Assembly: GCA_964558645.1 (NCBI GenBank)
Contig: CAZLEV010000001.1
Span: 29,568 to 93,567 of the forward strand
Reading direction: 5' to 3'
From: an uncultured archaeon
Lineage (GTDB): Archaea; Asgardarchaeota; Thorarchaeia; Thorarchaeales; Thorarchaeaceae
Length of the DNA: 64,000 nucleotides
The notes below the pieces were generated by a model. That model was not told the origin of the DNA. It worked only from the letters and a program-made list of their open reading frames with translations, and ran no database searches. A program made the position numbers and the translations under genes. This document shows, piece by piece, positions 49,307 to 51,481 of the stretch; positions within the stretch are counted from its first letter, which is position 1; each line of letters begins with the position of its first letter.

Positions 49307-51481
49307 ATGGGAGAGAAACGAATGAAGAGAAGATACGTCGCAGGTCTACTCAGTCTGTTCATAGTCGGGATGATTGCATCCTCCAATACGGCTAGTGGTT
49401 CAGCAGAACTTGCAGCAGATCCGACAATCAACAGCGTCTATGTTGATGTTGTCGTCCTACAGAACGGCAGAATCAATGTGACTTATTTCATCACTTTTAC
49501 CGCAGCGAGTGGTGGGCTTGGTGGATTCGACCTATTCGGGATCCAAGAGAGCAGTGTATATGACTCAAACCGTGCCTATGTAGAATGGGGTGGCTCAAGA
49601 TACTCCCTTATCGTGGATAAGGTTTCTCAAGGCTACAAACTGGATTGGGTGCCCCGTACTCCTGAAGGTGAACAGGTCCTGGTAGTCTTTGGATACTTCA
49701 GCACGAACAGGATAATCGAACAGACCACAGGAGAGTACACTGTTGAAGGGTCCTCGGAACCCGTCACGGGTGACTTCGGTGTTCTCAACTGGGCGCCTGT
49801 GCAGTGGAGTATCGATGTGCTGTATGAGAATGTACGTCTGGTTTATCCGATTGAGATGGATGAGGCGTGGATAGAGTCTGGGGGTGGGATTACTTCCGAA
49901 GGTGCACTATATGCCGGATACGTGGAGGACTACCGACAGGGCATCCTCTCCTCGGGTGAGACCCTTCGGGATTACGATGAGAACAACCTTCTCGCATATC
50001 CTTCAGCCCCAGATACAACTCCCCGCAACTTCAGTGTTAGTCTGGCAGCTGACCCCGCATACGCATATGACAAGTTGCAGGTATTTCAGTACACGAACTG
50101 GTCGTTCTATGCCGACCATGTAGAACCAGGGGCTCTTGGTGTTGTAGGTGATACCTACGTTAACGTGGATGCTGATACCAATTTCGAGTATGAGTTAGTT
50201 GTTTTCAATTTCGGTGATAGCACATTGTCCAATGTAGAAGTCACTCTAGGACTACCTGACAATTTGACTCTGATCTATGGAGCGCTCGAAACATACATTG
50301 GGAATCTTGCGGGTGGCCAGAGCGAATACCTAACCTATACGTTTAGGGCTGATAACATTCCTGACGTACTAACAGTCATCTTTCTTGTGACAGGAGAGAA
50401 CAGTGAGGGTTCTGTGGATGGGACCTTTACAGTCGACGTTTACGTAAGGGAGTACATCCCGCCCCTGATACCACCGGATCTCCTCATAATTGGTATATCA
50501 GGGATTATGGCGCTCGGCATCCTCTATTACGTCTATAAGAAAGTCACATATTCGTACGGGGCCAAGTGGACTGCAGATGAGACCACTTATAGCTATGAGA
50601 GCCCTGAGATTGCAGTTGAGACCTATGGAACCCCTGGGACGGTTGCAGAGCTAGACCCCGTCGAGTCCGCTTTCTTTGTCAACACGAGCAGACAGAAACT
50701 TGTCACGATGATACTCATGTCCTGCGTCAAGAAGGGGGCCGTCCGGGTGATTTCTTCTGAGCCATTGAAGCTCTCGGTGACCGGCGTCAAGTTCGAGGAA
50801 TTGACCTACTACGAGGAGCTATTCCTCAAGGCTATCAAGGACAATGAGTTAGATCCAGAGCTGGTCGATGAGATGATTGATCAACTTGGAGAACGCGTCC
50901 AGAAGAAGTCTTGGGATGCGGATTTCGAGGCAACCAAAAACCGTCATGAAGAGATGGTCGAAGGGGCCTGGGAAGAGCTCGAGGCCAGTCCCACAATCGA
51001 TGGCAGAACTGACTACTACTTCGATAGAAGGTATCATGATTCTTGGGCCTGGTACTGGTTGTATATGCATCCGCGGCATGACACAAGAATCGGTGGTGTC
51101 TTCAGGGATACTGGTGGCTCAATCTCTCCCCCTGATATTCCAGAGTGGTTCAGAGGCGTTGCTGATGCCACCGGGCATGCGATCAGTGGCGCGGGACGAG
51201 TAGTAGGTGATATAGCAACTACGACTGGCCAGATTATGTCAAATGTCACAAGCACTATCGGTGAGGTCATGAATGGCGTTGCTAGCATCATCAGCGAGCC
51301 GCTGAAACCAATCGTTGAGGGTACTAGTCGCTGCGTATCACATGACGCATGCCACTCGGCATGTGTGACTCATGATGCATGCCACTCGGCTTGTCACTCG
51401 GCATGCCACAGTGCTTGCGTGTGTCATAGTGCATGCCATTCTGCCTGCCATTCAGCGTGTGTCAGCGGAGGATTTCGCTAG
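49307..51481 (+). CDS. Single-pass membrane protein (DUF2207-like N and C regions plus an Ig-like insert) with a C-terminal Cys/His CHSA-repeat tail
   Basis: Signal peptide; [16 protein letters not shown]; Ig-like FNFG...LSNV.[34 protein letters not shown]...KKGAV; tail [11 protein letters not shown]...CVSGGFR. Confidence 0.88.
   Translation: [724 protein letters not shown]
51332..51478 (+). repeat. Coding Cys/His tetrapeptide repeat, (CHSA)x7 plus 2x CV[ST]HDA
   Basis: 49 aa with 11 Cys and 9 His. The repeat units use varied synonymous codons. Confidence 0.95.

What the first reader, a model, noticed from the sequence alone, without database searches (positions are those of the whole stretch)
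51332..51481. The CHSA tail appears selected at the protein level and is not simple slippage
The seven CHSA units are encoded as tgccactcggca, tgccactcggct, tgtcactcggca, tgccacagtgct, tgtcatagtgca, tgccattctgcc and tgccattcagcg. The peptide is identical while the codons differ, including both Ser codon families (TCN and AGT). That implies purifying selection on the 4-residue Cys periodicity. On a helix this would align the Cys residues on one face and the His residues beside them. Possible roles: an rSAM thioether core (i to i+/-n), or a Cys/His metal or Fe-S binding sensor. The terminal GGFR recalls the Gly-rich ends of DUF2207-type proteins.
Basis: partly seen in the sequence, partly recalled or inferred. 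Interest (0 to 1): 0.75.

Follow-up and report, generated by a model that had tools for sequence, protein, structure and literature searches.

The report
Conserved Cys-His tail paired with radical-SAM enzyme
The (CHSA)7 end of this Thorarchaeial membrane protein is an almost unchanging 51-residue tail, a histidine-bearing version of the Cys-repeat tails that in many archaea and bacteria sit beside a peptide-modifying radical-SAM enzyme, so the enzyme probably modifies the tail of a whole membrane protein, a system not found in any paper or family library searched.

Summary
Observation confirmed and strengthened. The seven CHSA units are there with the codons quoted. In 29 orthologs that are only about 60% identical overall, 47 of the 51 tail residues never change. 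All 51 codons vary synonymously, and nine Ser sites use both TCN and AGY.

The tail is not a free repeat. Its fixed layout is [16 protein letters not shown](CHSA)3-CV-(CHSA)3-CVSGGFR, and the two (CHSA)3 blocks are kept in all 59 Thorarchaeial genomes that carry it.

The protein has a signal peptide, an ectodomain, one membrane helix and a cytoplasmic domain plus tail. It belongs to a large family that no Pfam or NCBIfam model in the copies searched covers. Family tails are (CA)n...GGGR, CVCAC...SGGAG or ACH[S/D]...CVSGGxx. The scan has found the (CA)n form of this cassette before on other DNA.

A PqqD(RRE)-radical SAM/SPASM gene lies next to the tail gene:
- in nearly every Thorarchaeial genome that has the tail gene;
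- in 5 of 5 other Asgard genomes with CHxA tails;
- in 71 of 80 bacterial (CA)n loci.

The enzymes split by tail type with 100/100 support.

Best reading (about 0.5): the cytoplasmic tail is the enzyme's substrate, receiving Cys thioether crosslinks. Two invariant CX3D motifs fit this. An unmodified metal-binding tail is the main rival. No chemistry is shown.

The parts
51326..51478 (+). 51-residue Cys/His tail (S674-R724); stop codon at 51479-51481
   Evidence: 47 of 51 residues are invariant in 29 orthologs while every codon varies synonymously.
51332..51346 (+). First CX3D motif (C676-V-S-H-D680), which also starts the tail
   Evidence: Invariant in orthologs apart from one S/T change. C-V-[S/T]-H-[D/S] also opens CHxA-type tails in other Asgard lineages. 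CX3D is the crosslink motif of PapB (PMC9413430).
51362..51376 (+). Second CX3D motif (C686-V-T-H-D690)
51380..51421 (+). First (CHSA)3-CV block
   Evidence: It differs from the second block at many synonymous sites, so it is not a recent duplication or gene conversion.
51422..51463 (+). Second (CHSA)3-CV block, followed by SGGFR (51464-51478)
   Evidence: The ending A-C-V-S-G-G-x is shared with CHxA-type tails elsewhere, and A-C-A-G-G-G-R is the ending of (CA)n tails.
49307..51481 (+). Gene for the 724-aa tail protein: signal peptide, beta-rich ectodomain, one TM helix (about 387-410), cytoplasmic domain, tail
   Evidence: Orthologs are in 63 of 87 genomes of the class. A profile search finds 536 relatives at E<=1e-3.
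47236..48657 (-). PqqD(RRE)-radical SAM/SPASM enzyme, divergently transcribed
   Evidence: Pfam PqqD, Radical_SAM and SPASM. CX3CX2C and a CX2CX5CX3C SPASM motif are present. It is adjacent to the tail gene in nearly all genomes that have it.
48780..49175 (+). Conserved 131-aa protein of unknown fold, first gene of the tail operon
   Evidence: 66-79% identical in 28 loci, whereas the overlapping minus-strand 168-aa ORF is a shadow ORF. No family or clear fold match.
51482..52237 (+). Metallophosphoesterase whose ATG directly follows the tail gene's TAG
   Evidence: Pfam Metallophos. Present downstream in 19 of 29 orthologous loci, so it is a frequent but not constant partner.

Best explanation
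The CHSA tail is the Thorarchaeial, histidine-bearing form of a Cys-repeat C-terminal tail. Such tails are carried by a large, uncurated family of DUF2207-like single-pass membrane proteins. The tail lies in the cytoplasm. It is most likely the in-cis substrate (a 'core peptide' attached to a whole protein) of the neighbouring RRE-radical SAM/SPASM enzyme. That enzyme would convert several of the 11 cysteines into intramolecular thioether crosslinks, for example Cys to Asp in the two CX3D motifs and Cys to a residue within each CHSA unit. The product would be a rigid, protease-resistant module whose histidines may then hold metal. Shown: extreme protein-level conservation, homology to the (CA)n-tail family, conserved adjacency and co-occurrence with the enzyme, and enzyme clades that follow tail type. 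Inferred: cytoplasmic location, substrate status, the chemistry, and any metal binding.
For: (1) The tail is 98.8% identical in proteins that are about 60% identical overall, with synonymous sites near saturation. Even Ala, Ser and Val are fixed, which suits a stretch that must fit an enzyme active site or a packed structure better than a loose metal-binding loop. (2) The enzyme and tail genes are both present in 58 of 87 genomes of the class and both absent in 19. The 10 discordant genomes are mostly contig-end fragments, and in G059 a scaffold gap (N run) interrupts the tail gene. The two genes are divergent neighbours in nearly every case, and in G003 are separated by a 5.5-kb insert. (3) The only parts shared between the Thorarchaeial cassette and the (CA)n cassettes are the tail protein and the enzyme. 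The enzyme lies right downstream in 71 of 80 bacterial loci. The sister-order Asgard genome G001 has a CACACA...GGGR tail flanked by two such enzymes. (4) Five of five non-Thor Asgard genomes with CHxA tails have the enzyme next door. In a maximum-likelihood tree, the 7 CHxA-linked enzymes separate from 20 (CA)n-linked ones with 100/100 support. G001's enzymes group with the bacterial ones, not with Thorarchaeia. (5) The enzyme has an N-terminal PqqD/RRE domain, an intact CX3CX2C motif and a full SPASM motif. (6) Precedents: PapB crosslinks Cys to Asp in CX3D motifs (PMC9413430). CrpC, an RRE-rSAM-SPASM enzyme, installs thioethers on the large Cys-rich protein CrpA within CAGM, CAVD and CPLV motifs (PMC13692751). 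(7) The protein has only a signal peptide and one TM helix, with K/R after the helix, which places the tail in the cytoplasm with the enzyme.
Against: No chemistry is shown for any member of this family. Cys-His dyads and CxxxC spacing are classic metal ligands, and invariance fits a metal site too. The tail matches no curated RiPP precursor model at E<=10. The enzyme reaches no curated family cut-off: the best is AhbD at 150 bits against 500, TIGR04340 at 94 against 400, and TIGR04463 at 44 against 525. The protein body, the tail and the enzyme diverge together, so the clade split may reflect joint inheritance of a cassette rather than enzyme-substrate co-adaptation. It is also effectively a single contrast. 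The AlphaFold model of the tail is unreliable. No recognition motif for the RRE was tested.
Confidence: 0.5

Rival explanations
1. The tail is used unmodified as a cytoplasmic Cys/His metal or Fe-S binding module (sensor, store or cluster carrier). The radical SAM enzyme is a functional partner, for example receiving or handing over clusters or acting on another substrate, rather than a modifier of the tail.
For: 11 Cys and 9 His in 49 residues, with adjacent C-H pairs. The wider family keeps C, H and A but lets the fourth residue be S, D, N, A or G, several of which are potential ligands. In M. voltae the Crp cluster is upregulated on pyrite, which links such proteins to Fe/S supply (PMC13692751).
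Against: Non-ligand residues (Ala, Val, Gly-Gly-Phe-Arg) are as invariant as the ligands. The homologous (CA)n tails have no His at all, yet keep the same enzyme partner. The enzyme carries a peptide-recognition (PqqD/RRE) domain typical of maturases. No known metal-binding protein matched the tail by sequence.
Confidence: 0.27
2. The membrane protein acts as a giant leader. The tail is modified by the enzyme and then cleaved off, to act as a small free RiPP or peptide-derived cofactor, as in the mycofactocin or PQQ logic.
For: An invariant core at the extreme C-terminus next to an RRE-rSAM-SPASM enzyme resembles MftA/MftC and PqqA/PqqE logic. PqqE is the best solved-structure match of the enzyme. 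The segment just before the tail (PLKP..E.TSR) is conserved.
Against: No protease or exporter is conserved in the cassette. The 670-residue body is itself conserved, with an ectodomain and a TM helix, which would be wasteful for a mere leader.
Confidence: 0.1
3. The overlapping CX3CH motifs are c-type haem attachment sites, making a multihaem wire.
Against: No cytochrome c assembly protein (PF01578) was found in the 93%-complete genome, while the control genomes were detected. The tail is predicted to be cytoplasmic, whereas haem c is attached outside the cytoplasm. A four-residue period leaves no room for one haem per motif. Homologous (CA)n tails lack His.
Confidence: 0.02
4. The repeat is neutral low-complexity sequence produced by replication slippage.
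For: It is a short-period tandem repeat at a gene end.
Against: Codons differ between units, unit number is frozen in 59 genomes, and amino acids are invariant while synonymous sites are near saturation.
Confidence: 0.01

Closest known systems
(Cys-Ala)n...GGGR-tailed membrane protein plus RRE-radical SAM/SPASM cassette
   Same: The protein body is homologous: profile E-values of 1e-30 to 1e-50 reach the last tail residue. It shares the topology, the Cys-repeat tail ending in A-C-x-[G/S]-G-G-x, and the adjacent PqqD-rSAM-SPASM enzyme. Hybrid tails carrying both alphabets exist (P0113 and G216).
   Different: The period is 4 (A-C-H-S) instead of 2 (C-A). It has nine His, two CX3D motifs and a fixed four-block layout. 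The enzyme belongs to a separate clade and is divergently transcribed. A 131-aa soluble protein replaces the small zinc-ribbon membrane protein. No methyltransferase or second rSAM-like gene is present. A metallophosphoesterase often follows.
CrpA/CrpC of Methanococcus voltae (PMC13692751, 2026)
   Same: An RRE-rSAM-SPASM enzyme acts on a large Cys-rich protein encoded next door. The Cys motifs are repetitive and C-terminal. Crosslinks form within about four residues of the Cys.
   Different: CrpA is soluble, with a 17-residue repeat. CrpC belongs to TIGR04463, on which this enzyme scores 44 bits against a cut-off of 525. There is no sequence relation between the substrates.
Ranthipeptide and sactipeptide maturation (PapA/PapB, SCIFF/CteB, StsA/StsB)
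   Same: RRE-rSAM-SPASM architecture. CX3D motifs as in PapA. Closely spaced Cys with terminal Gly acceptors as in StsA.
   Different: Those precursors are peptides of a few dozen residues with a leader. Here the 'leader' is a 670-residue membrane protein. The enzyme meets none of the curated cut-offs (PapB 88.6 against 340, StsB 102.9 against 625).
ACGX-repeat peptide system (TIGR04340/TIGR04341; own knowledge of the NCBIfam entries)
   Same: A period-4 repeat containing Ala-Cys next to an rSAM/SPASM enzyme.
   Different: The tail gives no hit to any NCBIfam precursor model at E<=10. The enzyme scores 93.8 bits against a cut-off of 400. ACGX substrates are small peptides.
DUF2207 membrane proteins (PF09972/PF20990)
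   Same: Signal peptide, beta-rich ectodomain, TM helix, cytoplasmic domain and a low-complexity C-terminal tail. There are faint Pfam hits, and the Atlas neighbours are DUF2207 clusters.
   Different: All scores fall below Pfam thresholds. Typical DUF2207 tails are Gly/Ser-rich (own knowledge), not Cys repeats, and are not known to pair with rSAM enzymes.

Membership tests
Cys-repeat-tailed membrane protein / RRE-rSAM-SPASM cassette (uncurated) | Protein body homologous to the tail-protein family | tested here: met
   The profile of Thor orthologs plus G001 finds 536 proteins at E<=1e-3. Many alignments run to the last profile positions, and the hits carry (CA)n or CHxA tails.
Cys-repeat-tailed membrane protein / RRE-rSAM-SPASM cassette (uncurated) | C-terminal Cys-repeat tail ending A-C-x-[G/S]-G-G-x | tested here: met
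   The tail ends A-C-V-S-G-G-F-R. The repeat unit is CHSA rather than CA.
Cys-repeat-tailed membrane protein / RRE-rSAM-SPASM cassette (uncurated) | Adjacent PqqD/RRE-radical SAM/SPASM gene | tested here: met
Cys-repeat-tailed membrane protein / RRE-rSAM-SPASM cassette (uncurated) | Small zinc-ribbon membrane protein upstream (75 of 80 bacterial loci) and a methyltransferase or second rSAM-like gene downstream | tested here: not met
   No match to the G001 zinc-ribbon protein was found in the Thor loci tested, and the unrelated 131-aa protein stands there instead. No methyltransferase lies in 44-56 kb of the window.
Ranthipeptide/sactipeptide RiPP systems | Short precursor peptide with a leader and a Cys-rich core | tested here: not met
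   The Cys-rich core is the end of a 724-aa membrane protein. The only small ORF carrying CHSA (49193-49294) is not conserved.
Ranthipeptide/sactipeptide RiPP systems | RRE-rSAM-SPASM maturase reaching a curated family cut-off | tested here: not met
   The domain architecture is met, but no NCBIfam cut-off is reached.
Ranthipeptide/sactipeptide RiPP systems | Thioether crosslinks between Cys and an acceptor carbon | not testable with these tools
   This needs mass spectrometry.
CrpC family (TIGR04463) | Score at or above 525 bits on TIGR04463 | tested here: not met
   44 bits.
ACGX-repeat system (TIGR04340/TIGR04341) | Enzyme at or above 400 bits on TIGR04340, and a precursor matching the repeat model | tested here: not met
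   93.8 bits for the enzyme; no precursor hit at E<=10.
DUF2207 (PF09972, PF20990) | Pfam gathering score reached | tested here: not met
   PF09972 scores 10.8 bits against 24.4. PF20990 scores 13.6 against 33, and only on a relative. Remote kinship is suggested by the Atlas but not proven.
c-type cytochrome | Haem c maturation system in the genome and an extracytoplasmic motif | tested here: not met
   PF01578 is absent. The tail is predicted to be cytoplasmic.

The most novel reading that the evidence does not exclude
The enzyme turns the invariant Cys/His tail into a protein-bound, crosslinked, histidine-lined metal or redox cofactor at the cytoplasmic end of a receptor-like membrane protein. 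This would be a new kind of protein-derived cofactor, made on a whole membrane protein and conserved from Asgard archaea to Bacillota. The (CA)n and CHxA tails would be two 'alphabets' of the same chemistry.
Probability: 0.2. Interest if true: 0.85.

Novelty: new variant of a known kind. Interest (0 to 1): 0.62.

Why it matters
Radical SAM maturases are known mainly from small peptides. Action on whole proteins has only a few examples: QhpD on QhpC (PMC7876137) and CrpC on CrpA in 2026. Here a full-size membrane protein, kept across a whole class of Asgard archaea, carries what looks like a built-in core peptide. The CHSA form gives a natural comparison with the (CA)n form. It shows which parts are essential: Ala-Cys, the A-C-x-G/S-G-G ending, and in this branch His. 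It also adds two PapB-like CX3D motifs, which sharpens testable predictions about the chemistry. The tail is 51 residues long and invariant, so it makes a tractable substrate for co-expression and mass spectrometry.

Tried and rejected
- Three of the seven first database hits stop before or inside the tail. P0005 ends in an adapter-like LSLIHI, P0004 ends at an in-frame TAG, and P0006 is labelled partial by its source. The other four end further upstream. This could have been misread as orthologs lacking the tail.
- Pfam and NCBIfam scans of the tail, the cytoplasmic domain, the ectodomain and the 131-aa protein gave nothing above threshold.
- A PDB sequence search with the tail gave 0 hits at E<=10.
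- The AlphaFold model of the whole protein gives the tail as a helix at pLDDT of about 25-40, which is not usable.
- The 131-aa protein folds to a small alpha/beta domain (pLDDT 73) with no Foldseek match at E<=0.001 and no Atlas lead.
- The 33-aa upstream ORF with one CHSA (49193-49294) is conserved only within the genus, and is rejected as a precursor.
- The minus-strand 168-aa ORF (48774-49280) is rejected as a shadow of the plus-strand 131-aa gene.
- The apparent absence of the enzyme in G059 coincides with a scaffold gap (N run) inside the tail gene.
- The haem c reading is rejected.
- Literature searches for DUF2207, ACGX, and rSAM plus a Cys-rich tail found no description of this system.
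- No supplementary files are held for the CrpC paper, so its list of other Cys-repeat proteins could not be checked.
- PF27846, a precomputed label on bacterial CHxA-type relatives, is not in the local Pfam copy, so its description is unknown.
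Full report
**What is in the sequence.**
Window 51332-51481 is the 3' end of a 724-codon ORF (49307-51481, plus strand). From Cys676 the protein reads [16 protein letters not shown](CHSA)3-CV-(CHSA)3-CVSGGFR and then stops.

The last 49 residues hold 11 of the protein's 12 cysteines and nine histidines. The two (CHSA)3-CV blocks differ at many synonymous positions, so they are not a recent duplication.

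**Selection.**
The organism is an Asgard archaeon of the Thorarchaeia; the named database hits are Thorarchaeota or Promethearchaeota MAG proteins. A six-frame search of the 87 genomes of the class found the gene in 63 of them. I extracted 29 complete orthologs that are 59-95% identical to the window protein, most of them about 60-64%.
- The 51-residue tail is the same length in all 29.
- It is invariant at 47 positions. The only changes are S/T at two sites, S/A at one and F/Y/V at one.
- Every one of the 51 codon positions is polymorphic.
- Over 406 pairs, third-position identity is 43% and amino-acid identity 98.8%.
- Nine Ser sites use both the TCN and AGY codon families among orthologs. 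That needs two base changes through a non-Ser codon or a double hit.
- Nei-Gojobori proportions are pS 0.92 and pN 0.06 in the tail. In the ectodomain and cytoplasmic domain pN is 0.18-0.27. The tail's pN largely reflects the Ser family switches.
- A degenerate DNA pattern for (CHxA)2C hits exactly four times at one locus in each of 59 Thorarchaeial genomes, with no hit for the reversed control. Both three-unit blocks are therefore frozen.
- One genus (G013) lacks one [10 protein letters not shown] module.
- No other ORF in the window's own genome has such a tail.

Three of the first seven database hits stop before or inside the tail. One is cut at a contig end that carries adapter sequence, one ends at an in-frame TAG, and one is labelled partial by its source. 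The other four end further upstream.

**The protein.**
Only two hydrophobic segments exist: an N-terminal signal-like segment (11-29) and one TM helix (about 387-410) followed by K/R. AlphaFold models a confident beta-rich ectodomain, the TM helix and a moderately confident small helical/beta domain. The last 160 residues, tail included, score pLDDT below 50.

I infer a topology with the N-terminus outside and the C-terminus inside, which puts the tail in the cytoplasm. No Pfam or NCBIfam model reaches threshold. There are faint hits to DUF11 and to the DUF2207 N-terminal domain (E 0.59).

**The family.**
A profile of 15 Thorarchaeial orthologs plus the G001 homolog was searched against 1.84 billion representative proteins. 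It found 536 proteins at E<=1e-3 and 301 at E<=1e-10. Their C-termini fall into a few classes:
- ...[19 protein letters not shown], the commonest;
- ...[27 protein letters not shown];
- ...[24 protein letters not shown], with period 4.

Hybrids carry both alphabets, for example a Promethearchaeota protein ending ...[23 protein letters not shown]. Across the period-4 class the conserved unit is A-C-H-x, with x = S, D, N, A or G. Unit number there ranges from about 3 to 10. The class also occurs in bacteria, for example a Firmicutes MAG protein.

None of eight representatives hits a Pfam family at threshold; one has a faint DUF2207_C hit. The protein-language-model Atlas places a CHxA-type member next to DUF2207 clusters at 0.95-0.98.

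**The enzyme link.**
The gene at 47236-48657 (minus strand) encodes PqqD (RRE), radical SAM and SPASM domains. It has an intact CX3CX2C motif and a CX2CX5CX3C motif.

Its ortholog was searched in the same 87 genomes.
- Both genes are present in 58 genomes and both absent in 19.
- The 10 discordant genomes are mostly contig-end fragments. In G059 a scaffold gap (N run) interrupts the tail gene.
- Where both lie on one contig, they are divergent neighbours about 0.6-1 kb apart. In G003 a 5.5-kb insert separates them.

Between them lies a conserved 131-aa gene (48780-49175, plus strand; 66-79% identical in 28 loci). The overlapping minus-strand 168-aa ORF is much less conserved and is a shadow ORF. 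The 33-aa ORF with one CHSA is not conserved. A metallophosphoesterase follows the tail gene in 19 of 29 loci. The GTPase was seen in one of those 29 short-flank loci and in two of the six wider loci examined.

Outside the class:
- The sister-order genome G001 has a 555-aa homolog ending [17 protein letters not shown] and flanked by two RRE-rSAM/SPASM genes.
- A scan of 185,579 species genomes gave at least 436 confirmed loci. The best 80 are mostly Anaerolineae and include Bellilinea caldifistulae.
- In those 80 loci, an enzyme 34-36% identical to the window's lies right downstream in 71. A small zinc-ribbon membrane protein lies upstream in 75.
- In Bellilinea a second rSAM-like gene and a methyltransferase follow.
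- Five of five non-Thor Asgard genomes with CHxA tails also have the enzyme next door. It is 40-45% identical to the window enzyme, against 32-36% to G001's.

A maximum-likelihood tree separates the 7 CHxA-linked enzymes from 20 (CA)n-linked ones with 100/100 support. G001's enzymes fall on the bacterial side. The enzyme thus follows tail type rather than host taxonomy. Because the protein body diverges in the same way, this may reflect joint inheritance of the cassette, and it amounts to one contrast.

**Mechanism.**
The tail protein and the enzyme are the only parts shared by all forms of the cassette, and the tail is the most conserved part of the protein. The enzyme carries a peptide-recognition domain. 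I therefore take the tail to be the enzyme's in-cis substrate (confidence about 0.5).

The likeliest chemistry is Cys-derived thioether crosslinking. The tail contains two invariant CX3D motifs, the motif that PapB crosslinks (PMC9413430). CrpC, an archaeal RRE-rSAM-SPASM enzyme, was shown in 2026 to crosslink a large Cys-rich protein within CAGM, CAVD and CPLV motifs (PMC13692751). StsB links a CxCxC stretch to nearby glycines (PMC10288494).

The invariance of Ala, Val and the GGFR end fits a stretch that must thread through an active site or pack tightly.

The main rival (about 0.27) is an unmodified Cys/His metal or Fe-S site. It cannot be excluded by computation. Against it, the homologous (CA)n tails have no His yet keep the same partner.

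A released RiPP or cofactor, with the protein acting as a giant leader, gets about 0.1; no protease or exporter is conserved. Haem c attachment at CX3CH is very unlikely. No cytochrome c assembly protein is present in the 93%-complete genome, the tail is cytoplasmic, and the motifs overlap.

**Comparison with what is known.**
The enzyme reaches no curated cut-off:
- AhbD, 150 bits against 500;
- TIGR04340 (ACGX system), 94 against 400;
- PapB, 89 against 340;
- StsB, 103 against 625;
- TIGR04463 (CrpC family), 44 against 525.

The best solved-structure relatives are PqqE, the tetraether synthase and SkfB. The tail matches no precursor model and no PDB chain. No paper found describes Cys-repeat-tailed membrane proteins paired with rSAM enzymes.

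The scan itself has reported the (CA)n form several times on other genomes. I re-tested its adjacency claim on 80 loci. New here are the His-bearing period-4 tail class, its frozen four-block layout in Thorarchaeia, its own enzyme clade and its different accessory genes.

**Verdict.**
I class it as a new variant of a known kind (RRE-rSAM-SPASM maturation, extended to the tail of a whole membrane protein). Interest is 0.62.

Noticed in passing
L022 (G048:C156), about 70 codons before the gene end: The G048 ortholog has an in-frame TAG where the other orthologs have Glu or Gln. The full tail stays intact and in frame behind it. This may be a very recent nonsense mutation, an assembly error or read-through. 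The database protein P0004 ends at this TAG.
   Followed up: partly
window 49307-50530 (ectodomain plus TM helix of the tail protein): Foldseek's best PDB matches for the model are OST1/ribophorin I of the oligosaccharyltransferase (E 1e-8) and TRAP-beta of the translocon (E 2e-7, TMt 0.5-0.6). This may be only a generic beta-sandwich likeness, but both are eukaryotic-signature membrane proteins of interest in Asgard archaea.
   Followed up: no
P0018 and P0164-P0172 (bacterial CHxA-type relatives): These carry the precomputed Pfam label PF27846.1. That accession is missing from the local Pfam copy, so a very recent Pfam entry may already cover part of this family.
   Followed up: partly
L150 (G216:C1) and P0113: Hybrid tails join CHxA units directly to [12 protein letters not shown], linking the two tail alphabets in one protein.
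   Followed up: partly
L033 (G013:C45:2842-5286): The ortholog in this genus is longer (815-aa open frame). Its tail lacks one [10 protein letters not shown] module, the only length change seen in the class.
   Followed up: no
L035 (G003:C1), between 3770 and 9342: About 5.5 kb is inserted between the rSAM gene and the 131-aa gene, which are otherwise about 120 bp apart. The content of the insert was not examined.
   Followed up: no
window 52274-53257: The small GTPase after the phosphoesterase recurs at 37% identity in G003 and G013, but is absent from most orthologous loci, where the 408-aa ORF (window 53726-54952) follows instead.
   Followed up: partly
window 48774-49280 (minus) and 49193-49294 (plus): The 168-aa minus-strand ORF is a shadow of the conserved plus-strand 131-aa gene. 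The 33-aa ORF containing one CHSA is conserved only within the genus.
   Followed up: yes
L104 11014-12279 and relatives: (CA)n cassettes carry a second, shorter PqqD-rSAM-like paralog without a SPASM hit, plus a methyltransferase. Neither is present in the Thorarchaeial cassette.
   Followed up: partly
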